This document shows positions 14,619-61,724 of a stretch of 64,000 nucleotides of DNA, piece by piece (the first letter of the stretch is position 1; each line of letters opens with the position of its first letter). The DNA is taken from positions 28,148,001 through 28,212,000 of the forward strand of contig NW_026889751.1 in assembly GCF_033153115.1 (NCBI RefSeq), given 5' to 3'. The DNA is from Saccostrea echinata. Lineage: Eukaryota. Under the pieces are notes generated by a model. It did not search any database and was not told where the DNA came from. It was given only the letters and a program-made list of their open reading frames with translations. A program made the translations under genes and the position numbers.

Positions 14619-15309
14619 AAGGAGCGTAGATGTAGCATAAAATGCAAGTTATTTTGTATTAGTACGAATCCTTTTTCAGAATTAAAGGGTATCCCAATAT
14701 ATAGGTTGAGTGGAATGAATAGGGATACCATCACCCTCCTCCCACCGCACTCTTAGTCTTTCTTATTTTTGGTTCTCGGTTTCCTCTTCTCTTTTTTCTC
14801 CAGTCTCCTTTCTTTGGCTCTCTTTTTTTTTGTCTTTGTTAATCCAAACACATTAATGCAATGCTGATGAAACAAGCATCTACTCGTAGTATATAAACTT
14901 GCCGCGGGAACGATCCTTGACCACAATCATTATATAAGTAATCGTATTGTTCTATAATTAGATATATCTACAAATATTACCAGTTATTCTTGTTTGCCTA
15001 TAGACAAACCCTTTCCCCAAATCTCATTGGAAGAGGATTCTAGTGGGCAGTTGGCGTTTTATGAGAGGGGATATGATAAGCATGAAAGTTTTCAAATCAA
15101 AAGCTCTGATAAATTTACTGTTTCCTATTGAAATAAACTGTTTTATCATGTTAATATGTAGGTTTTTATGGTGCATATTCCACGACTGAATTGCTTGGGA
15201 ACTGATGTATCAAAAACAAACTCTTGGTGAAAATCGGGTGGAAGGTGCAATTACAGAAAAAACTTTGGATACAGAGTCTTACGTTCGTTTGTGATGTGTA
15301 AAAACCCAT

Positions 15310-16698
15310 TGTTACAACGCCATATGTAATAACATCGCGAAATGTAATAAACCGGGATTATTGCATTTTGCGTAATTACATTTTGCGTCGATATCAACGC
15401 AGAATGTAATAACGTAAAATGTAACAACACACCTTTTAGGATTATTACATTTTGCATCGAGATCAAGGCAAAATGTAATAACACGATTTTTGGATTATTA
15501 CATTTTGCGTTGTTACATTTGCGTCGAGATTAAGCAAAATACAAAAACGCAAAATGTAATAACACATTTTTGGTCAGTCAGATTGAGAATAATTTTCAAT
15601 TGAGTAGTGGATGAAGAAAGTAAACGGAAGGAAAATAAAACAATATGCTTATTCTTACAATAGATCTGATTTCATCATATATTGATATCATTAGCCATTT
15701 AAAATCAGATGATATTCAAATCATAGGTGTTGCAAATTAGAAACGTGCGTGCACATGTGTGTGTGTGAGGGGGGGAGGGTTATTTCGTTTATCAGTGTAT
15801 CGGTTTGCTTTTTCTTTTTGCATAGGCACATGCACGAAATTTAGAAAAGAAATCTATTTTTACTAGCAAGTGTAACTATAGCGGGAAGGGGGTTTCTTGA
15901 CAATTAAGATATCACACTGTTTTACAAATCATGTGCATTGCAGACCAGGCAGACCAGCAAAACTAAAATTCCCCCTCTCTCTCTAATAATAAAATGGATT
16001 GTTTCTGCATGCGCATAAAAATACAAAGATCAACATGCGAAGTAAACCCTACCCCCCTTCTCCTCACCAGACACACACACACACACACACATGCACTTCT
16101 AATTTGCTAACCAATGTACACATGCATGTTGTACATGCATATCAAGAGCTTTTAATGGACCCATGGTCAATCTTTGGTAATTAAGAATGTCAGTGATGGA
16201 TATATAGTACAGACTGATTTATAAACAGACATGTCATGTTAGAAATAGAGTTTAAAAATATATACGATTAGATTTAATAATGTCCGTTAAGGCCGTAATG
16301 TTTGTCTAATATTCTTATAGGTCTGTCTGTTTACTAAATCGAGTTTCCCCATTGTTATATGTTTAAATCAATTTTGTGATGTTTCGCATTGAAAACAATA
16401 CCAAAAAAAAAAAAACAATTATATTTGTTTTATTACATTTTGTTTTATTACATTTTGCGTTGTCTTCGACGCAAAAAATAAAAAACGCAAAATCTAACAA
16501 CCAAAAAGTGCATCATTACATTTTGCTTTAATCCGAACGCAAAAAGTAATAACGCAAAATGTAATTATCCAAAAATCGCGTTATTACATTTTGTGTTATT
16601 ACATTTTGTGTTGATCTCGTCGCAAAATGTAATAACGGAAAATGTAATAATCCCAGTTTATTACATTTTGCGTTGTTATTACATTTCGCGTTGTAACA
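15310..16698. mobile_element. Foldback-type non-autonomous DNA transposon with long modular TIRs
   Basis: Termini TGTTACAACGC / GCGTTGTAACA; ~260-bp arms built from TTACATTTTGCG / CGCAAAATGTAATAA subrepeats; 6-bp TSD ACCCAT. Confidence 0.85.
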
Positions 16699-17367
16699 AC
16701 CCATGTTTTCTAAAAAAAAAAAAAAAAAAATACAACTTAATCCTTTATTCATCTGCGCTTTCCTAAATAATTATTCTGGTGCGTATACACCAAAAACCAA
16801 GACACATGCAGTAAAAAAAAATCTTATCACAGTTTTTTTAAAATAAAGTTTGCTGATAAGCAAACAGTCAGAAATATATATATACAAACCACAGGTGAAA
16901 AGCAGACATAGTTCCTTTATTATAACTTTACTACAAGATCTAGAGGAAATAACAAAAACATCGAATTTTTAGCAAGAAAAAAAAATAAAATAAAGAGACT
17001 AGTATTTTTTTAAATGTATACTCCAGTTAACTAATCAGGGATCCACATTTCAATTAGTGTAAATAAATCTGGCGTCAATATAAATGACCATATATCAAAA
17101 CAACGAAATTGTTTGTCACAACAAATTTAAGTACTCAGAGGTCGGGAAAATTCCAACAAGTATGGGATAAACAGTATTTGTTTGGCAATGGCGCGGAATT
17201 GAAGATAACCACAGCACTCCTGTAGAAAAATGTCTCCAGTAATATCTTACCATTTTTGTAGTGACAAGGACAGCCTTTCTTTGAAGAGGATCTGAGAATT
17301 AAGAAAGAGGTGGGTACTAGTATATCTCGTTTTGAAACCTCTGGTGATTCGACTGAACTTTAACACC

Positions 17368-19630
17368 ATGGTTTGGTCTTTTCTTCTCGTTTTGGCATTT
17401 ATAAATATGGAATCCATTGTCGGTAATGTTCAATTTTGACTTCAAAATTTGGTTTTAAAATTATATGTAGCAATCCTTTGACTGGAATCTTTGGTGTTTA
17501 GGAAAGCCTCATGCAAGAGTCGACACGTGCACAACAAGAGGTGGTTCGTGCATTCGGTCAAACATCCACTGTGATGGTTACATAGACCAATATGCTTTAG
17601 GATGTAGAAAGAATGTTTGCTGCAAACCAGCGCCATCTACTGTTAATCCTGAACCAGCACATCCAGGTTACCTACTTTTATCACATAACGACGTAACCTA
17701 AAATACAGTATGAAAAACTATATGATCAGTAATTAATTTTTCACAATGTGTCTTACGAGTTTTATGGATGTGTTCTAAACTGTTTTCAGTTATACATGTA
17801 TATTTATGGAGTTTATAATGATTTTTCTTTAAGTTTGGATAGATACTAAGGTTATTATCTTTGTAACCTGTCTTATTTTAAAGGCACAGACAAGTGCGGA
17901 CTAATAACACGGGTACAAACACGCCATTTAGATCCGCGCCTAAGAGTGGTGGGAGGTGACCCAGCTTTGGATGGTGAATGGCCCTGGCAAGTCAGTTTTC
18001 AGAATGACCGCGGCCATTTCTGTGGAGGGACGCTAGTGTCCGATCAATGGGTTGTTACCGCGGCTCACTGTCTCTATGGGTAAGCCAGAGGTGTTCGAAG
18101 GAAGCTTCATTTTATATAAGTTAATTAATAATCTAGAATGTTCCTTTATATTTCGAGATAGATATTAAAGCAGTTGATATTTTTGATGGCCAAATCTGTT
18201 TAAATTTTTGAGCAGATTATCTTTTAACTGAATTCATTGATAGACAATCCATTTCCGGTGTTTATTTGTTACTTGGCGAACATCACCAAGAATACACTTC
18301 GAACAACGAGCGGAATACAACGATCCAAAAAGTGCTTATAGTACGTTTGACAATCGGTAATAGATAGTAGTATTAGTAAACCCTGTATTTGAATATGATA
18401 TACAAATTTTTCTTGAACTTCCAGCATCCCAACTACTCCCCTGAACATGGCCTCCCCAATGACATAGCTTTAGTCCAGCTCTCACAACCAGTAAATCTGG
18501 CCGGACATTACGTCAGAACAGCCTGTCTGCCTCAGAAAGATGACGTATTTACTGATACAGACCATTGTTACATCAGTGGCTGGGGTTATACTCAAGGTTA
18601 GAAATTAATTTTATTTTTAGATATTCAAGTTACAGCCGCTCATCGGAATAGTGAATAGATTAATGTTTGACATGGCCGTAGGAACGGGGGGGGGGGGAGC
18701 GTGCCCCCCAATAATTTTACCGATATGTAGAATATTATAGAAAACATAGCTATGATATGTTTGTGCCCCCTCAATCATAACGTCTGATGACCTTTTTTTA
18801 TTTTTATTTTTTTTTTTTAGCTTGTCAAGAAATTTTGGTACATGATAGTGCCCCTCCAACTGAAAATGTATAGTTGTGCCCCCTCAAAGTGAAATTGCTT
18901 CCTACGGGCCTGTTTGATGTCGCCTTGATATCATTTGTACAAGAAAGAAAGATTTTATAATGGAGGGAGAAATCTTAGGTCTATTTTATAATTTTAATGT
19001 TTATTATGTTAAAGGAACTGGTGACAATGTTGTACTACGGCATCTTCGCATTCCTATAACTTCTACTTTGACGTGTAACTCCAGCTGGGACGGTGTCATA
19101 ACCGACAAACAGCTCTGTATAGGAAGTGGGGACACAGGGGCATGCCGGGTAATAGAGAGAAAAAGAGATGGGGGAGAGAGAATAGATATTGCAACATATT
19201 ATTTATTTAAACTCTTTCGATCGCATTGGTAAAGATTCGTCTGTCTGTCATTGAACGTCTGCTTTTACTTCTTAACGTATCCTGAAAGACAAGGTTTTTT
19301 AAAAAATAATTTCAATCGTTTTAATTTTTTTCCATTTTAATCACTATTTTTTTAGGGGGGGGGGGTATGACAACTGTGTTGTTGTTTAATTTGCTTTAAA
19401 GCAGTAGAGCTGCATTTCGGAGAAGACTCCTGATTGATGATTGTCAGCTTTGCTATAAATTTTAGGGAGATTCTGGAGGGCCGTTGGTGTGTAAACGTCA
19501 TGATTCGTTTGTACTGGTGGGTGCGACGTCATGGGGATCATCCACTTGCTCCGAGTTGGGTAAACCAAACGTGTTCACGAAAATCACCGCTTATCTCCCC
19601 TGGTTACAGAATGAACTATCGGCACTATGA
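17368..19630 (+). CDS. Secreted S1A (chymotrypsin-fold) serine protease with an N-terminal beta-defensin-like six-Cys domain, 327 aa, 7 exons
   Basis: Exons 17368-17422, 17502-17666, 17884-18079, 18244-18340, 18425-18596, 19015-19148, 19466-19630; all introns GT-AG, phases consistent, 984 nt total. Signal peptide [19 protein letters not shown]; activation site R|VVGG; WPWQVS; HFCGG; catalytic triad motifs TAAHC, NDIAL, GDSGGP. AATAAA at 19666. Confidence 0.93.
18671..18912. mobile_element. MITE with 5-bp TSD in protease intron 5
   Basis: Termini CATGGCCGTAGGAA / TTCCTACGGGCCTG; TSD TTTGA; second copy at 28390-28640. Confidence 0.8.
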
Positions 19631-28389: not shown

Positions 28390-28640
28390 TATGGCCGTAG
28401 GAGCCGGGGGAGGGGGGCACGGAGGGCCGTGCCCCCCCCCCCCGCCTTAATAATTTTGCTGATATATAGAAAATCATAGAAAACAGCTATTATATGCTTG
28501 TGCCCCCTCAATAATTACGCCTGGTGACCTTTTTTTTTTTGGCTTGTCAAGGAATTTTGGTACTTGATAGTACCCCCCCCCCCCCAACTGAAAATGTATG
28601 GTTGTGCCCTCTCAAAGTGAAATTGCTTCCAACGGGCCTG
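28390..28640. mobile_element. MITE of the same family as 18671-18912
   Basis: Colinear with the 18671 copy; 5-bp TSD CTTAT. Confidence 0.8.
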
Positions 28641-29989
28641 CTTATCATGCAAGAAACTATATAGTTGACACCTGATGACACTGGCCTTACTAAGTACCTT
28701 AGTAATCAATATTCAAAAAAGGTGCACTATAGATATATATATAATTAGCAATTGACTAAATGTTTCATTAAGAGTGTAGGATTCTTATGTTTAAGACATA
28801 TGGGATTACTAGGACGCCGTTGTTTTACAAAATGAACTTTCTTTTTCAGAAAACCCATTGAAACCGCATGTTGTGTCCGCTATTTTGTAACAAACAATAA
28901 TAGAAAGAAAACAACTTCTTTGATTAAAAAAAAAGATTTGGATGAAATTGGATTTTAAAAAGTTAATTTAAACAAATATCTAGACATTTTTGGTCAAAAA
29001 AATAATCAGTCGGCAAGATTTAGGTCGTGTTAGGGGCAACAAAAAGATTTCTTACTTGGGCCTAATCTGCCAAAGTTAATTAAGTAGAAGTTATCCGTCA
29101 GCTAAGAAACGAACTTTCATGTGCATTTCAGTTCTCCTAACGTACCTGTTCTTTATGAAGAATTCGATATTCTAAGCTGTGTTCTCAAGAGACTTCATTG
29201 TGTCATTCTTGGTCATCACCTAATACAGACAACTTTCATCCTCACGCTATTAAAGTCTAGGACTCTGTGTTATATGCAGGGATTTTTGCCTTGGAGGAGT
29301 TATGTTGCTGTGTCGTTTTTACAACCACTTAATCTTCAATTCTTGCAAAGAATTCCTTTTTCTCCTTCCTTCTGAAAAACATAATATTAAGTGCGTTTTA
29401 TTTGCTTTTATAAGATGATGAATATAGCAGTTAAATAGTTCCATGGCCTTCACCAGGTTTCTGGTAAGGGGGTGAAGGGGAGGGAAACACCGTAAACAAG
29501 ATTTTTTTATGTGTACTATTTTGGTGGGTTCTGCATTTTTTTTCTTCAAAATATAGAAGCATTACTTTAAACAGATGAATAATGAATATTTTGTTAACAA
29601 AATTATTTTGATTTCTTTAAAAGGTAGAAGGGGTAAATACGTTAACACCCAATCGTGAATTCACCCCCCCCCCTTTCTGACTGCCATAACTTCAATCAAT
29701 GCAAAAGAAGGAAATCTTACACTTATTACATGTAAGAAGGGGGTCGATACATGACATTGTTTTTAAACTTGTCGTTCTCTGTACACAAATTTGATGCCCT
29801 TATGAAAAAGCATTTGACAAATATTTTGTTAAGATAGGACTAAAAAATCTTAACCATGCCCTAGATGCTTTAGAAATGACACAAATATACGGGAAATTAT
29901 TCTTGTAGGAATATAGAACGTAACTAATGTAGAATTTTAGAAATCTAAAGCCAAGCTTATTCTTTGCTTTCTTTTTAAAGATTTTTTTT

Positions 29990-49300: not shown

Positions 49301-52300
49301 TGGATATAGATTAAATAGTCTGAAGGACCTTAATAAGCCTTGACATGCAGGGGCCATAAAAAGATTACATCATGGTGAGATAATTAATCAGGTATTAATC
49401 CTACCTGTTTGTTCCAATCAGTGATGTCTATTGACTCATGTCAGTCATGCATGGCAATAGCTGTAGGCGTGTATTAGTAAACATCATGTATTCAGAATCA
49501 CTGTACTGGAACCAGACACGGTTATGTAGGAAATTGCTTTGGAATCTCTTGGAAACCACGCTGTTAATTGAGTGTACGTAGTACCAGTATCTAATGCCAT
49601 CACTTCCCTATGTGTGTATATAGTCCTACCTGTTGGCTTTTCCTCTGTGTGGAATAACATTTTGTTGGAACATATTTTTCTCGATTTTCTCAATCATCCA
49701 GAAAGGTTTGACAGTCTGGTAAGATATTGAAGGGTCTATACTATTTCCTTGAAAGAAAGTTATAAGTTATCTTTAAGAAAGAATAGTTTTACAATGTCCT
49801 TATTGTTATTAAAATCAGAATTGATAACTTTCATATGCAATCAAATAACTTCCTGTAATTCAATAATCTGAAACTAAGTCTGCATGATAAAGATTTTTTT
49901 TAAACATATGAAGGCTTAGTATGTAGATTTTTAACTTGATGATTAATTCATGGGGTCTGAAAATTTGATGACCAGGAATTATGAATAATTTTGAGACCTG
50001 TGTGTGATTAATGTCTTGTTCATGGTAAGTTTGAGTATTTAAAGTTTTTCTTCATGATGAAAAAGAGGTCTGGCATTTAAAGAATGTTATTCAATAGCCC
50101 CAGGGTTATCAATAAATTGTAAATATTCTGCACCTTGCTTGATAAACTTATTTTTTAAATGTAACCCTAAGTCGTAAGATAAATGTGTGTAACACCCCCT
50201 TTCTATGTATGACAATAGAACTGATGTGTATAAAGACATTCCAAACACATGGCTGGGTTAAGCAGATAGTGGGCTGTGTACATTACCAGTGATGATTAAT
50301 ATTTACTCTTTTAGTTTATTTTTTTGTAGCTATTAGAAGAGACGGAGGAGGAAACAGAAAGTCATCTCCCTTGGAAGAGAAATCAGGTGTCTACTCTCTT
50401 GCAAAGTCTGTCAGTGCCGCTCGACCACAAGAGACTAAGGTTCTCTACAGAACTCTCTCTGACCCAGCAGGAGGAATAACTGACGAGGGAAACCCCTCCC
50501 AAGACTACGACCATCTCAGTACCTGGAGAACCAAAGAAACTGTGTCCCCTAAGTCTCAGAATTCCCCCAAATCCCCACGATCTCCGAGTGGACCTGTGAT
50601 ACCACAGTATGAGGATCCATGGGATTCTAAAGGGAAACAGCAACACTTTAACCAGATTTGTGAGAAAGCAGAAATAGCATCACGTAATAGTCAGCCAACA
50701 TCACCTGCAAGTCCAAACAAATCTCGGAATAGAATGGATGTGTACGAGGACGCGTGGGACTCAGATTTTCAACAGAAACTGATAGAGGCTCGTGTACAGG
50801 AAGCTCGTAGAGCAAGTGAGTCGAGACCGAAGGGTCGATATGAATATGAGGAGCCTGTCTCCTCCTCCAAAACATCAGTGCGAAAACTTCCATCTGTAGG
50901 AACAAAAAACACTCAAAATGACGGGCAAGTGTACATGTCAAATTATGAACAGCCCTGGGACTCAAAAGAGAAAGAACAAGAGTTGGAGGAAAAATTTAGT
51001 CGTGTTGGGTTGTCTGGGGGTCAGAGATCCCCTGGGAGCCCCCCTCCCCCAGACTTTGCACCCCCTCCACCACCCCAGGCATATGAAGATGCCTGGGACA
51101 TCAGACCACAGTCCAAGATCATCTCACAGGTGTCATGTAAGTGTCAAATTATTGTTACTGTAATTTAGTTTGTATGGATGTGTGATTTTATCCGTATATT
51201 GGTATATTGTGATTTTTTATTGTGCAATATGTTTTGGTGCTACTGAGACTAAAGTACCATGATTTCTTATATGATTATAAATTCTGGAAATTCTTTAATA
51301 AAACTTTGGAAATTCATTCAAAATCATACTGAAAATTTGTGTAAAAATATCATGATGTTATCGTAATATTTGGGAGGGGGAATATGATATATCATGATAA
51401 AAATTTTTGGTGATACTCATCCCTAATGGCCTGGTTTTACTGTATGCAAAAATTGCTTGTAATTCCCACATAAAAGGTTGAAAAATAAAAATTTTCAACT
51501 CGCATACTACAGTAAAACATGCTTAAAACTAGATGTTTACCAGAATATAGATTTGCTCGCATACTCGCTACACTAACTTCATTGCTACAGTGACTTTCAT
51601 GTGACATAAGAACAGAACGAAAATCGAGATTGATCAGGATGACTCTTATTATACCTAAAATAAATGCACAATATGGGAGCAGATTTAACATCTAATAATA
51701 GATTGACAAAAGTACATATTTATGTGTATCACATATAAATTGATATGTGATTTTAAATAAATTTAACAGGAAAGATTTTACCTAAAATTTTGAGGGTAGA
51801 ATATACATGTACCTATAAGTTCTTAGGCTAAAAAAGGGCTGTTCTATAAATTGAATAATAGTTTATTAGAATTTCTTTTTATGATCATGTAGTACATATA
51901 CTACCTTGACTACCCTGTCTCTCTGACTTCAAATATGTGGGGGTTTTTTAATCAGTTGATTTTGAACACCCCCCCTTTTTTTCATTAAACCAATAATTTC
52001 CTATTTTTTGGATTAGATTTAACATATTAAGATTTGTTTGTATTATGCATATTTATAGTAAATATCTACGTCATATATATCAAGGCCATAGTTTGGGCAG
52101 CAAGAATTTCAGATTAATTATATGTAAATGTTAATTGGCTATAAATCACAGATACTGATATGGCTTAGCGATTTTGCTATCCCTAAAGGTTTGCTGTAGC
52201 TGTGTTTCTACTATGGTTTCCAGTTCCCCATTTAAAAAAACAAACAAACATCAAAATCTAATCTTTTTTGTACTCTTGAAATAAGTATTACCGGTATTAT

Positions 52301-58956: not shown

Positions 58957-61724
58957 ATGGCGTGTTGTGGATACGCCTCTTGGTGGGCCAAACTGTCCTG
59001 GGGATGTGTGATGCTAGGCTCCCTCCTTCACGTGGTGGCATGGTCCACCCCCTCGTGGATGATCGGGACTAGTGGAGGAACAACCACGAGGGTCGGACTG
59101 TGGAAGACACGCACGTGCACAAGCACTTGCACGGAGACCTCTGTTGATATTTCATATAAAAATGGTTAGTTTATTTTAAACATTTTTTTTAATCTACAAA
59201 GGGGAAATACTTATGTAATACGTAATAAATAAATATATAATAATAAAAATATATATTTACAAAAACCGATGTTTGATGTATCCCCTTTCCCCAGGTTAGT
59301 GACCTTTAAGCTAGATTTGACCACGATTTAAGATGACAATAGACCTTTGGGTCATGCGCAACATCTCACTAAAATGGATTATTTCCAGCCAAGGATTCCA
59401 AATATATGACCCAGAAACGATTATGTGATAGAGAGAGAGAGAGAGAGAGAGATGAAATATATATGGAGATAACGAACAGTATTCAAGCTCAAAAGTAAAT
59501 TCAAACAATACAAATCAGGAGCAGAGCAAACACGGACCTCTAAGACATCAGAGGTGGATCAGGTGCCATGGAGGAGTGAGCATCTCCTGTCGACCGGTCA
59601 CATCCGCCGTGTGCTCTTTGTCATGTCGGGAATAACGGGAAAATCCGTTGACAATTCAGTGTGTAAATAATGGCCTAACAATTTACATGAAAAACGTCAG
59701 TCAGCATTTGACTTAATGATAGATTGTATTTGCTGACAAGGTCATTGTATCGACCATAGAACTTTAGAAATGATAACTTTAAACGAGACTCTTGATATTC
59801 TTGTTTCATCAACTTGTCTGTCAATAACTTATCTCGTTTTAAAAATTGTTCATACGTAAAGCATGCTTGCATATCGAATCAACTGAGAGATATAAACCCC
59901 ATATGCAGGTGATGAGGGTATATTGCTGCATAAGTAAGGGAAGTTGGCGATTGAAAAGTTAAAGTCATCACGTTTATCATAAAGCTTTGTTGTTAGATTA
60001 CCATTTACGTTTTTTTTTCTAGTAAAATATCAAAATATAAAACAGATGTCAGAGTCTGTGATATCTTTTATTTCAAGCTCACTGGGATATATCGTGTCGA
60101 CATATGAATGGAAATAACTATTGTTAATTGATAATACATCGTCGATGTATCTAAATGTCGAGTTGAAGGCCACAGCAAGAGTTTTCTTTTTCTCATGCAT
60201 AAGATTTTGAATAAATTCTGCTTCATATGTATAAAAAAAATAGGTCTGTTAATAACGGGACGAAATTGCTACCCATGGGAATTCCAACAAATCGTTCGGA
60301 GACCTGGCCTCCAAAAACCACATAGATATTGTCAATCAGAAACTCAAACATCTTTTTAATATCAACGTCAGAGCACTTAATTGTATGTACCATCAGAATG
60401 TTTTTTAACAAAATGATTCTGCAAATGACCAATGACAAGGTAAGTAAATTTACGAGTTCCATTTTTATTGAAAAAAAGCAGCTGTCAATTATGTCAAAAA
60501 GCCTTGACTTTAATTTACCGTGGGGAAGAGAGACAATGAGACAATCCCACTAGAACCTGTATAAAACATGTGTCTTCTCTATGCAGAAGACATAATGAAA
60601 GGTCATCATAGATACAATCTGATTAAAATCAGATCTTTGTTACGCTCCGAAATTCTGATGGTCGCTGTACAAAGTGTATACAGTGACCATCAGAATTTCG
60701 GAGGGTAACAAAGATCTGATTTTAATCAGATTGTCATAGATAGAATATAGGCGGAGCATATGTCTGATGGCAAGTGTTCGATTTTTTCTCTCTAATGGCA
60801 CGTGTTCGATTTTTTTCAGATTCTTTCCGGACAACCCAGGCTATGGAGACAATCGCCTTCATTCTATGCTTGCTGATACCGATACTGTTGGGTGTGTACG
60901 TAATGTCGGATCGCTTCAGGAGTCCCAGACTGGCGGCCTGGTGCATGGCGGGATGCTTTGTTACAGGTATCCTGTTTTATGTGGGTTAGTTGTGAATTGG
61001 ATGTTCATTGGTTAGATTATAAATATGATTTTAAGATTAACGGAGAAAATCTCTTGGTGCCATGGTTATGTTAACCAATAAACAACTGAATTCCTTTCAC
61101 TTCATAATTGAATGTGTTAAGTCACATCATTGCATCATTGATTTAAAGTGGTATTCACATTCTCAGAGACTGCAGGTTAACACCCACCCACCCCCCTTTT
61201 CTTGCTAAATATTGTTACTTTGCAAATGTTGCCATAGAACTTTAACGTAATTGGGCACCGGAATGGTGTTATTTAAATACAGTGTAAGTAAAAAAATCAA
61301 GTATTTTCCAGCTTTGTTTCTATTGATGGGGATGATAGCATGGCTCGTATACGTCACAGATCCCTGGGCGGTGTCCTACTCATTCGGATTCAGTGTAATT
61401 GCACTCGTATTGACGTTCATAGCTGGATTTCTTCTCATCCCAGACATTGACGAGGAGAGATCTTATGGATTTTGTACAGATTGTAATTCTTCTGGGTCAG
61501 ATGGTAGAAAGAAACCAAGATCTGTGTCTCCAGATTTCAGCAGCGAAAGATCCTTCTCCCGAAACGACCGAATCACGCCCTTATCGTCACGGTCTGAATA
61601 TGACCGCATGCCGCAACCTATGACACCGGTGGAAAATTCTTGGAACAGAAGCAATATGTCCAGTTCCGCTACTTATAATAATATATCTCCTATCACTTTA
61701 CAAAGGGATCGTGTGGCCTACTAA
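58957..61724 (+). CDS. PMP22/EMP/MP20/claudin-superfamily tetraspan membrane protein, 255 aa, 3 exons
   Basis: Exons 58957-59164, 60820-60966, 61312-61724 (phase 1 introns, 768 nt). Four hydrophobic helices; first-loop W..GLW..C..C signature (PSW..RVGLWKTRTCTSTC); YSF before TM4; Ser/Arg-rich tail. AATAAA at 61775. Confidence 0.9.
59500..60530 (-). mobile_element. Truncated, degenerate Penelope-like retroelement (RT) in claudin-like intron 1
   Basis: Minus-strand translation with frameshifts: FLIDNIYVVFGGQV..VGIPMGSNFVPLLTDLF..YEAEFIQ..FRYIDDVLSINN..IYPSELEIK..DKRDDFNFSIANFPYLCSNIPSSPAYG..KFYGRYNDLV. Confidence 0.85.
60615..60733. mobile_element. 119-bp palindromic MITE with 9-bp TSD (Mutator-like)
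   Basis: ~55-bp arms CAATCTGATTAAAATCAGATCTTTGTTAC..GGTCGCTGTA paired with their reverse complement, two mismatches; TSD TCATAGATA (60606-60614 and 60734-60742). Confidence 0.85.

What the first reader, a model, noticed from the sequence alone, without database searches (positions are those of the whole stretch)
17368..19630. Secreted serine protease zymogen fused to a beta-defensin-like six-Cys module: a possible molluscan analogue of clip-domain proteases
Seen: exon 2 (17502-17666, absent from the ORF track) is a symmetric phase 1-1 exon encoding [32 protein letters not shown], i.e. C-x6-C-x6-C-x10-C-x4-CC (17528-17623). It is followed by a Pro-rich linker, a lone Cys (DKCG), R|VVGG and an intact His/Asp/Ser triad. 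Established: C-x6-C...CC with a GxC motif is the pattern of beta-defensins, big-defensin C-termini and tick carboxypeptidase inhibitor domains. Arthropod clip-domain proteases have the same layout (six-Cys module ending CC, linker, S1A domain), and the linker Cys normally bonds to Cys122 (here RTACLP), keeping the module attached after activation. Inference: an exon-shuffled defensin-fold module acts as a recognition, regulatory or antimicrobial head on a protease, possibly in a bivalve extracellular cascade.
Basis: partly seen in the sequence, partly recalled or inferred. Interest (0 to 1): 0.75.

Follow-up and report, generated by a model that had tools for sequence, protein, structure and literature searches.

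The report
Oyster protease with defensin-like head
This spliced oyster gene encodes a chymotrypsin-type enzyme precursor with a small six-cysteine head that resembles beta-defensins in sequence and recurs on scallop, snail, brachiopod and annelid proteases; the head likely stays tethered after activation and likely works as a binding or regulatory module, much as clip domains do in arthropods.

Summary
Observation confirmed. Seven GT..AG exons give a 327-aa S1A zymogen; all six introns are skipped in contigs of run X2, including exon 2 to exon 3. The gene matches Saccostrea echinata XP_061168955.1. Pfam does not annotate the module. The same head-plus-protease layout occurs in other oysters, a scallop, a snail, Lingula and Owenia; all but the snail form a Gly189 clade (100/99), so it is an old lophotrochozoan subfamily, not a bivalve novelty. 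A module profile matches beta-defensin-fold structures (AvBD11, tick carboxypeptidase inhibitor), not clip structures, but weakly and largely through cysteine spacing; the predicted fold was uninformative. Variable charge, enzyme-like conservation and the likely disulfide tether argue for an interaction head rather than a released antimicrobial. No tissue data: immune versus digestive role is open. Molluscan 'clip-domain' proteases are already in print (titles seen only) and may be this family. New variant of a known kind; interest 0.42.

The parts
17368..17422 (+). Coding exon 1: start codon and predicted signal peptide, phase-1 donor
   Evidence: joint to exon 2 in one X2 contig; hydropathy
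17502..17666 (+). Exon 2, symmetric phase 1-1: short basic leader, six-Cys module, Pro-rich linker
   Evidence: joints on both sides in X2
17528..17623 (+). Six-Cys module C-x6-C-x6-C-x10-C-x4-CC with GxC, beta-defensin/tick carboxypeptidase inhibitor-like in sequence
17884..18079 (+). Exon 3: linker Cys (17895-17897), activation site Arg|Val (Val 17946-17948), catalytic His (18066-18068)
18244..18340 (+). Exon 4 of the S1A domain; skipped in minor contigs of X2 and X4 (frameshift, 152-aa product)
18425..18596 (+). Exon 5: catalytic Asp (18461-18463), Cys122 equivalent (18524-18526)
19015..19148 (+). Exon 6: Gly at position 189 (19137-19139), floor of the S1 pocket
19466..19630 (+). Exon 7: catalytic Ser (19472-19474), Gly216, Asn226, stop; transcript continues to at least 19789
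17281..17309 (+). Alternative upstream donor spliced to exon 2, bypassing the signal exon; no long ORF from the ATGs tested
   Evidence: one X3 contig, side 27

Best explanation
The gene encodes a chymotrypsin-family precursor, likely secreted, whose six-cysteine head likely stays disulfide-tethered after activation and likely serves as a binding or regulatory module, in the manner of a clip domain, in extracellular proteolysis that most likely belongs to body-fluid or mucosal defence. Steps: (1) shown: the seven exons are spliced and the triad is intact. (2) Inferred from S1A biochemistry: a trypsin-like enzyme cuts Arg94|Val95; with Gly189/Gly216/Asn226 the enzyme would prefer non-basic residues, so it would not activate itself and would sit downstream of another protease. 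(3) Inferred: Cys78-Cys205 (chymotrypsinogen Cys1-Cys122) holds the module-bearing light chain on the active enzyme. (4) Inferred: the module folds as a compact three-disulfide beta-defensin-type domain on a flexible Pro-rich linker and places the enzyme on a partner, substrate or surface. (5) Untested: tissue, partner and substrate.
For: Splicing. Module plus S1A in 3 oyster genera, Argopecten, Pomacea, Lingula (2 proteins) and Owenia. Oyster module scores 39.7 bits on a profile built from the 5 non-oyster modules, above the highest decoy with matched Cys spacing and GxC (26.9 bits, scored on the full profile). Module about as conserved as the enzyme among oysters: 24/32, 23/32, 20/32 against 181/233, 184/233, 182/233. 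Net charge -4 to +4 over 11 modules in 10 proteins. Cys1 and Cys122 conserved. 7 of 9 PDB matches of the module profile are beta-defensin-fold. Nearest language-model clusters are clip domains in both calls, scores 0.83 and 0.84, leads only. Clip proteases keep head and enzyme joined by a disulfide (PMC10643895, passage). Rusticalin is a precedent for beta-defensin-like heads on an enzyme in blood cells (PMC6339383, passages).
Against: No expression, localisation or binding data were obtained. The best solved relative of the catalytic domain is digestive chymotrypsin(ogen) and the Cys1-Cys122 tether and Arg activation fit a gut zymogen equally. Three abalone proteins in the same clade lack the module, so it is dispensable there. 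The fold is not shown (pLDDT 63, two strands only, no structural match). PDB matches are weak (17-21 bits a domain) and 3% of decoys with inhibitor-like spacing and GxC reach 19.7 bits. Pomacea and Owenia modules score only 17.7 and 19.2 bits left out, within decoy range. Big defensins also range from anionic to cationic (PMC7203481 section 14), which weakens the charge argument.
Confidence: 0.5

Rival explanations
1. A digestive chymotrypsin-like enzyme of the gut or digestive gland, activated by trypsin, whose head is an accessory substrate- or mucus-binding module with no immune role.
For: Best PDB match is chymotrypsin(ogen), E 7e-51; Gly189 pocket; chymotrypsinogen-type Cys1-Cys122 pair; ancient conserved clade with module-less abalone members; database names are chymotrypsinogen-like, by similarity.
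Against: Only one S1A gene in the 64-kb window, no tandem cluster; three potential N-glycosylation sites; ordinary digestive chymotrypsins have no such head (established knowledge). None of this is decisive.
Confidence: 0.3
2. The head is a true antimicrobial beta-defensin-like peptide, released from the Pro-rich linker or acting while attached, making a two-function antimicrobial protein.
For: Profile matches to AvBD11 and mouse beta-defensin 7; phase-1 intron just 5' of the Cys-rich region as in big defensins and beta-defensins (PMC7203481 passages); window module net +2; rusticalin proposal.
Against: Conservation like the enzyme and charge down to -4 in relatives; no basic site between module and linker Cys other than single Lys residues; no big-defensin hydrophobic domain; phase 1 after a signal exon is common.
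Confidence: 0.1
3. The head is an inhibitory domain, like the tick carboxypeptidase inhibitor, that damps its own enzyme or a co-secreted carboxypeptidase.
For: Tick inhibitor C-terminal domain is the best single-domain PDB match, E 0.003; this reading was offered for rusticalin.
Against: Single domain, not the two-domain inhibitor (passage); its C-terminus is not free, whereas the tick inhibitor is recalled to use a free C-terminal tail; the zymogen already has a standard activation switch.
Confidence: 0.07
4. The module is simply a very short clip domain, and the gene is an orthologue of the molluscan 'clip-domain' proteases already described (this concerns naming and prior art and is compatible with the best explanation).
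For: Same Cys order, GxC and CC; clip and beta-defensin cysteine arrangements are described as identical (PMC11335235 passage); language-model neighbours are clip clusters; titles on scallop and abalone clip proteases. Recalled, no call: the Chlamys protein is about 354 aa with a low-complexity linker, like the 354-aa Argopecten hit, and a pearl-oyster one about 332 aa.
Against: 0 of 8 modules match Pfam CLIP or CLIP_1 while 2 of 2 control clips match CLIP; profile-profile probability 0.3%; clip profile gives -2.7 to 2.5 bits on the modules; catalytic domains group apart from the 2 arthropod clip proteins in the tree. These tests penalise long loops, and the control holds only long-loop clips.
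Confidence: 0.45

Closest known systems
Arthropod clip-domain serine proteases (Pfam CLIP PF12032, CLIP_1 PF18322; PDB 2IKD, 2IKE)
   Same: Signal peptide, six-Cys head ending CC with GxC, linker, lone Cys, activation site, S1A domain; head held by a disulfide after cleavage (passage).
   Different: Head is 31-36 residues with 5-7 between Cys1 and Cys2 and 9-10 between Cys3 and Cys4, against 9 and 16-22 in the two control clips; no Pfam or profile match; catalytic domains in a separate Gly189 clade.
Beta-defensin-fold proteins: avian beta-defensin 11 (6QEU, 6QES, 6QET), tick carboxypeptidase inhibitor (2K2Z, 1ZLH, 3D4U), mouse beta-defensin 7 (1E4T)
   Same: Cys spacing, GxC, terminal CC; only coherent PDB matches of the module profile.
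   Different: Those are free peptides; here one copy is fused to an enzyme. Similarity beyond the cysteines is modest; fold not shown.
Rusticalin (ascidian; PMC6339383, passages seen)
   Same: Beta-defensin/tick-inhibitor-like Cys repeats N-terminal to an enzyme.
   Different: Two repeats on a Zn L-Ala-D-Glu peptidase, in chordates, coral and placozoans; unrelated catalytic domain.
Chymotrypsinogen A (S1A; PDB 1ACB)
   Same: Best solved match (E 7e-51); Cys1-Cys122 pair, Arg activation site, non-Asp189 pocket.
   Different: Extra six-Cys head and linker; Gly189 and Asn226.
Published molluscan 'clip-domain' serine proteases (Chlamys farreri, pmid 17046285; Haliotis discus hannai, pmid 29108972; a Pinctada fucata one, recalled)
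   Same: Possibly the same family; titles seen in reference lists only.
   Different: Could not be compared: papers not held and sequences not retrieved.

Membership tests
S1A chymotrypsin-family protease | Trypsin domain with His/Asp/Ser triad | tested here: met
   Pfam PF00089 on 4 of 6 exon pieces and E 7.8e-66 on the Ostrea orthologue; triad located; fold matches
S1A chymotrypsin-family protease | Zymogen activation site and Cys1-Cys122 link | tested here: inconclusive
   Arg|Val-Val-Gly-Gly and both Cys present and conserved; cleavage and bond are inferred
Trypsin-specificity S1A proteases | Asp189 | tested here: not met
   Gly at 189 by alignment to chymotrypsin; Pomacea relative has Asp
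Beta-defensin fold | Six Cys, C-x6-C with GxC, terminal CC | tested here: met
Beta-defensin fold | Sequence-profile similarity to solved members | tested here: met
   7 of 9 matches, best E 2.5e-05 (two domains), single domains E 0.003-0.007; weak against spacing-matched decoys
Beta-defensin fold | Three-stranded sheet and 1-5, 2-4, 3-6 disulfides | tested here: inconclusive
   pLDDT 63, two strands, no Foldseek or VIA match; bonds not reported by the tool
Beta-defensins as antimicrobial peptides | Free mature peptide; match to a curated defensin model | tested here: not met
   Fused to a protease; 0 of 8 modules match a defensin Pfam model (filters drop most matches above E 0.1)
Big defensins | Hydrophobic N-terminal domain before the Cys-rich domain | tested here: not met
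   Only 9 residues lie between the predicted signal peptide and Cys1; feature from PMC7203481
Big defensins | Phase-1 intron 5' of the Cys-rich region | tested here: met
   PMC7203481 passage; low weight
Tick carboxypeptidase inhibitor (I68) | Two tandem domains, free-standing | tested here: not met
   One domain, internal; no Pfam match
Clip-domain serine proteases | Six-Cys head, linker, S1A domain, inter-chain Cys | tested here: met
Clip-domain serine proteases | Head matches a clip profile | tested here: not met
   0 of 8 against 2 of 2 controls; hhalign 0.3%; language-model lead 0.83-0.84 points the other way; short-loop clips tested only through Pfam CLIP_1
Clip-domain serine proteases | Catalytic domain within arthropod clip-protease lineages | tested here: not met
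   Separate 100/99 clade; only 2 clip proteins (5 domains) in the tree
Clip-domain serine proteases | Role in a haemolymph cascade | not testable with these tools
   No tissue or activity data
Published molluscan clip-domain proteases | Orthology with the Chlamys, Pinctada and Haliotis proteins | not testable with these tools
   Papers not held; sequences not among hits by name

The most novel reading that the evidence does not exclude
An unannotated beta-defensin-fold module has ridden on a Gly189 protease since the common ancestor of molluscs, brachiopods and annelids, has moved onto other proteases as a phase 1-1 exon, and targets them to microbial surfaces in a lophotrochozoan defence cascade; it would be the structural bridge between clip domains and beta-defensins.
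Probability: 0.2. Interest if true: 0.7.

Novelty: new variant of a known kind. Interest (0 to 1): 0.42.

Why it matters
Databases name these proteins chymotrypsinogen-like and miss the head entirely, and the RefSeq model for this oyster lacks the signal exon. Recognising the head defines a small, old subfamily that can be tested directly (delete or synthesise a 32-residue module). If it is a defensin-fold recognition head in a defence cascade, it gives bivalves a candidate counterpart of clip proteases and a handle on how clip domains and beta-defensins are related. If the published molluscan 'clip' proteases are this family, the gain is a reclassification and a wider range rather than a discovery.

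Tried and rejected
No whole genome was held, so paralogues outside the window are unknown. Single-sequence searches with exon 2 found nothing in Pfam or PDB; NCBIfam 0 of 8. The search of protein representatives with the full protein was swamped by multi-domain proteases: only 5 of the 150 listed carry the module, so the range is a lower bound. The profile search of longer proteins gave 10 of 3411 candidates, 9 already known and 1 weak archaeal hit; free-standing short peptides were not searched. Module structure prediction and both fold searches were uninformative; the full-length model matched only S1 folds. Whether the module packs on the catalytic domain remains untested. No listed run is on record as RNA and none names a tissue; contig depth was not used as expression. 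A nucleotide scan of metagenomes with the module alignment gave no result. Independent gain in Pomacea: suggested by the tree, not forced (AU p 0.232). Literature: ten searches showed no paper describing a beta-defensin-like domain on a molluscan S1A protease, and 0 papers for six accession numbers; the library lacks most subscription journals, where the molluscan clip papers are, one search returned only noise, and supplements were not searched. Earlier scan findings: nothing relevant. Rejected: artefact of gene prediction (splice joints); bivalve-specific novelty; classical long-loop clip domain.

Full report
Observation. The region holds one seven-exon gene on the + strand (17368-19630). 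All introns are GT..AG, the joined frame is 327 aa, and intron phases are 1,1,2,0,1,0. Exon 2 (17502-17666) is symmetric 1-1 and holds a short leader, the module C-x6-C-x6-C-x10-C-x4-CC (17528-17623) and a Pro-rich linker. A loose pattern for the module occurs once in the window's six frames and once in 100 second-order Markov simulations. Four of six listed runs were laid. X2 skips all six introns; exon 2 joins exon 3 in one contig with 164 letters on the shorter side. X3 and X4 show two of the six joints each, X1 none. No contig spans the whole mRNA, and contigs reading through intron 1 are as deep in X2 as the spliced one. Minor forms: an upstream donor at 17309 joined to exon 2 (one X3 contig; no long ORF) and an exon-4 skip (X2, X4). 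The protein from exon 2 onward is identical to Saccostrea echinata XP_061168955.1, whose RefSeq model has a different start without a signal peptide; that start was not among the joints in the four runs.

Catalytic domain. It is an S1A protease with His135, Asp184 and Ser276, activation site Arg94|Val95, and Cys78 and Cys205 matching chymotrypsinogen Cys1 and Cys122. The S1 pocket is Gly189/Gly216/Asn226, so by established S1A rules it is not trypsin-like and would need another, trypsin-like enzyme to cut its Arg site. The best solved match is chymotrypsin(ogen), E 7e-51. It is the only S1A gene in the window.

Range. Orthologues with the module occur in Saccostrea cucullata, Ostrea edulis and Magallana gigas. 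Among the 150 best hits of a search of 1.84 billion representatives, 5 carry the module: Argopecten irradians XP_069128547.1, Pomacea canaliculata XP_025084188.1 (two module-protease units), Lingula anatina XP_013397940.1 and XP_013387554.1 (CUB-CUB-module-protease), and Owenia fusiformis CAH1772549.1. A tree of 48 catalytic domains (14 near-duplicate or partial proteins left out; 32 other top domains, one per protein) puts oysters, scallop, both Lingula proteins, Owenia and an abalone protein in one clade at 100/99; all have Gly189. The abalone members (three species) lack the module. The Pomacea units have Asp189 and fall outside, but a tree that holds them with the clade is not rejected (AU p 0.232). 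So module plus Gly189 protease likely goes back to the ancestor of molluscs, brachiopods and annelids; separate gains are possible, not shown.

What the module is. Pfam finds no defensin, inhibitor or clip model for any of 8 modules. A profile of the 8 matches 9 PDB sequences at E up to 10, 7 of them beta-defensin-fold: avian beta-defensin 11, tick carboxypeptidase inhibitor and mouse beta-defensin 7. As a control, two arthropod clip domains from the same hit list match Pfam CLIP and only the clip structures 2IKD and 2IKE; module and clip profiles do not align (probability 0.3%). Against this: the test is mostly one of cysteine spacing. Random decoys with inhibitor-like spacing and GxC reach 19.7 bits in 3.2% of 1000, and decoys with clip spacing never do, so the PDB scores of 17-21 bits show compatibility more than deep kinship, and short-loop clips were tested only through Pfam CLIP_1. 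A protein language model puts clip clusters nearest for both the Ostrea and Argopecten modules (0.83, 0.84; below the tool's 0.9 line). Clip and beta-defensin cysteine arrangements are described as identical (PMC11335235, passage). The structure model had pLDDT 63 with two strands and no fold match, which says nothing either way. Within the family the kinship is real for oysters, scallop and Lingula (29.5-39.7 bits left out) and weak for Pomacea and Owenia (17.7, 19.2). Fair label: a compact beta-defensin/tick-inhibitor-like module in a clip-like position.

How it most likely works. Shown: splicing, intact triad, conserved module and tether cysteines. Inferred: secretion; activation by a trypsin-like enzyme; the light chain with the module stays attached through Cys78-Cys205, as in clip proteases (PMC10643895, passage) and chymotrypsin. 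Among oysters the module is about as conserved as the enzyme (20-24 of 32 against 181-184 of 233) and its net charge runs from -4 to +4 over 11 modules. That fits an interaction surface better than a fast-evolving cationic peptide, although big defensins also vary in charge (PMC7203481 section 14). I put 0.5 on a clip-like binding or regulatory head in defence-type extracellular proteolysis, 0.3 on a digestive enzyme with an accessory head, 0.1 on an antimicrobial head and 0.07 on an inhibitory head. No tissue, partner or substrate data were obtained, so the choice between the first two rests on analogy and on recalled literature.

Prior art. Enzymes with beta-defensin-like heads are known: rusticalin (PMC6339383, passages). 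The phase-1 intron before the Cys-rich region is shared with big defensins and beta-defensins (PMC7203481, passages) but is common after signal exons. [quoted passage not shown] From memory only, the Chlamys protein is about 354 aa with a low-complexity linker and a pearl-oyster one about 332 aa, both found in haemocytes and responsive to Vibrio; the Argopecten hit here is 354 aa with such a linker. They may well be this family (0.45). That would lower novelty and raise the odds of a defence role. Ten literature searches showed no description of the head as beta-defensin-like, within a library that lacks most subscription journals; supplements were not searched. PMC4833078, PMC3039611 and PMC11818254 were seen as passages and added only background on arthropod clip proteases.

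Verdict. Interest 0.42; the boldest reading not excluded (a defensin-fold targeting module bridging clip domains and beta-defensins in a lophotrochozoan cascade) has probability 0.2 and would merit 0.7.

Noticed in passing
window 17230-17238 and 17471-17501: The RefSeq model XP_061168955.1 appears to start with a 9-base exon at 17230 spliced to an acceptor at 17470, giving a form without a signal peptide; Magallana isoform X1 and S. cucullata models also have non-signal starts. Not seen among joints in four runs.
   Followed up: partly
window 297-2033 (-) and 9687-11396 (-): Two intronless-looking B-box, coiled-coil, NHL-type (TRIM-like) genes, paralogous.
   Followed up: partly
window 15309-15566 and 16400-16699: Two patches of a degenerate 69-70 nt palindromic repeat; outer arms 129 nt, 85% complementary, 1133 nt apart, possibly a foldback or MITE-like element upstream of the gene.
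   Followed up: partly
window 18672-18915 and 28391-28643: Dispersed repeat in intron 5, 76% like a second copy in the window and deeply covered in all four runs.
   Followed up: partly
window 50296-51168 (+): Long exon with repeated Y-E-D/E-x-W motifs and a Pro-rich end, by eye like an SH2 adaptor of the SHB/SHF kind (recalled label); no Pfam match.
   Followed up: no
window 61251-61724 (+): Exon with two hydrophobic stretches and a Ser/Arg-rich tail, by eye like the end of a claudin-type membrane protein (recalled label); no Pfam match.
   Followed up: no
P0169, residues 386-461: A Pacearchaeota hypothetical protein (755 aa, cluster of 5) has two tandem six-Cys units, the second with near-identical spacing to the module (E 2.8; 25.8 bits, within decoy range; no Pfam or PDB match).
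   Followed up: partly
P0093, P0167, P0168: Abalone members of the clade lack the module but keep one extra Cys in a short leader, perhaps a remnant.
   Followed up: no
P0057, residues 22-27: The scallop orthologue has a multibasic, furin-like site just before the module; oysters have only single basic residues there.
   Followed up: no
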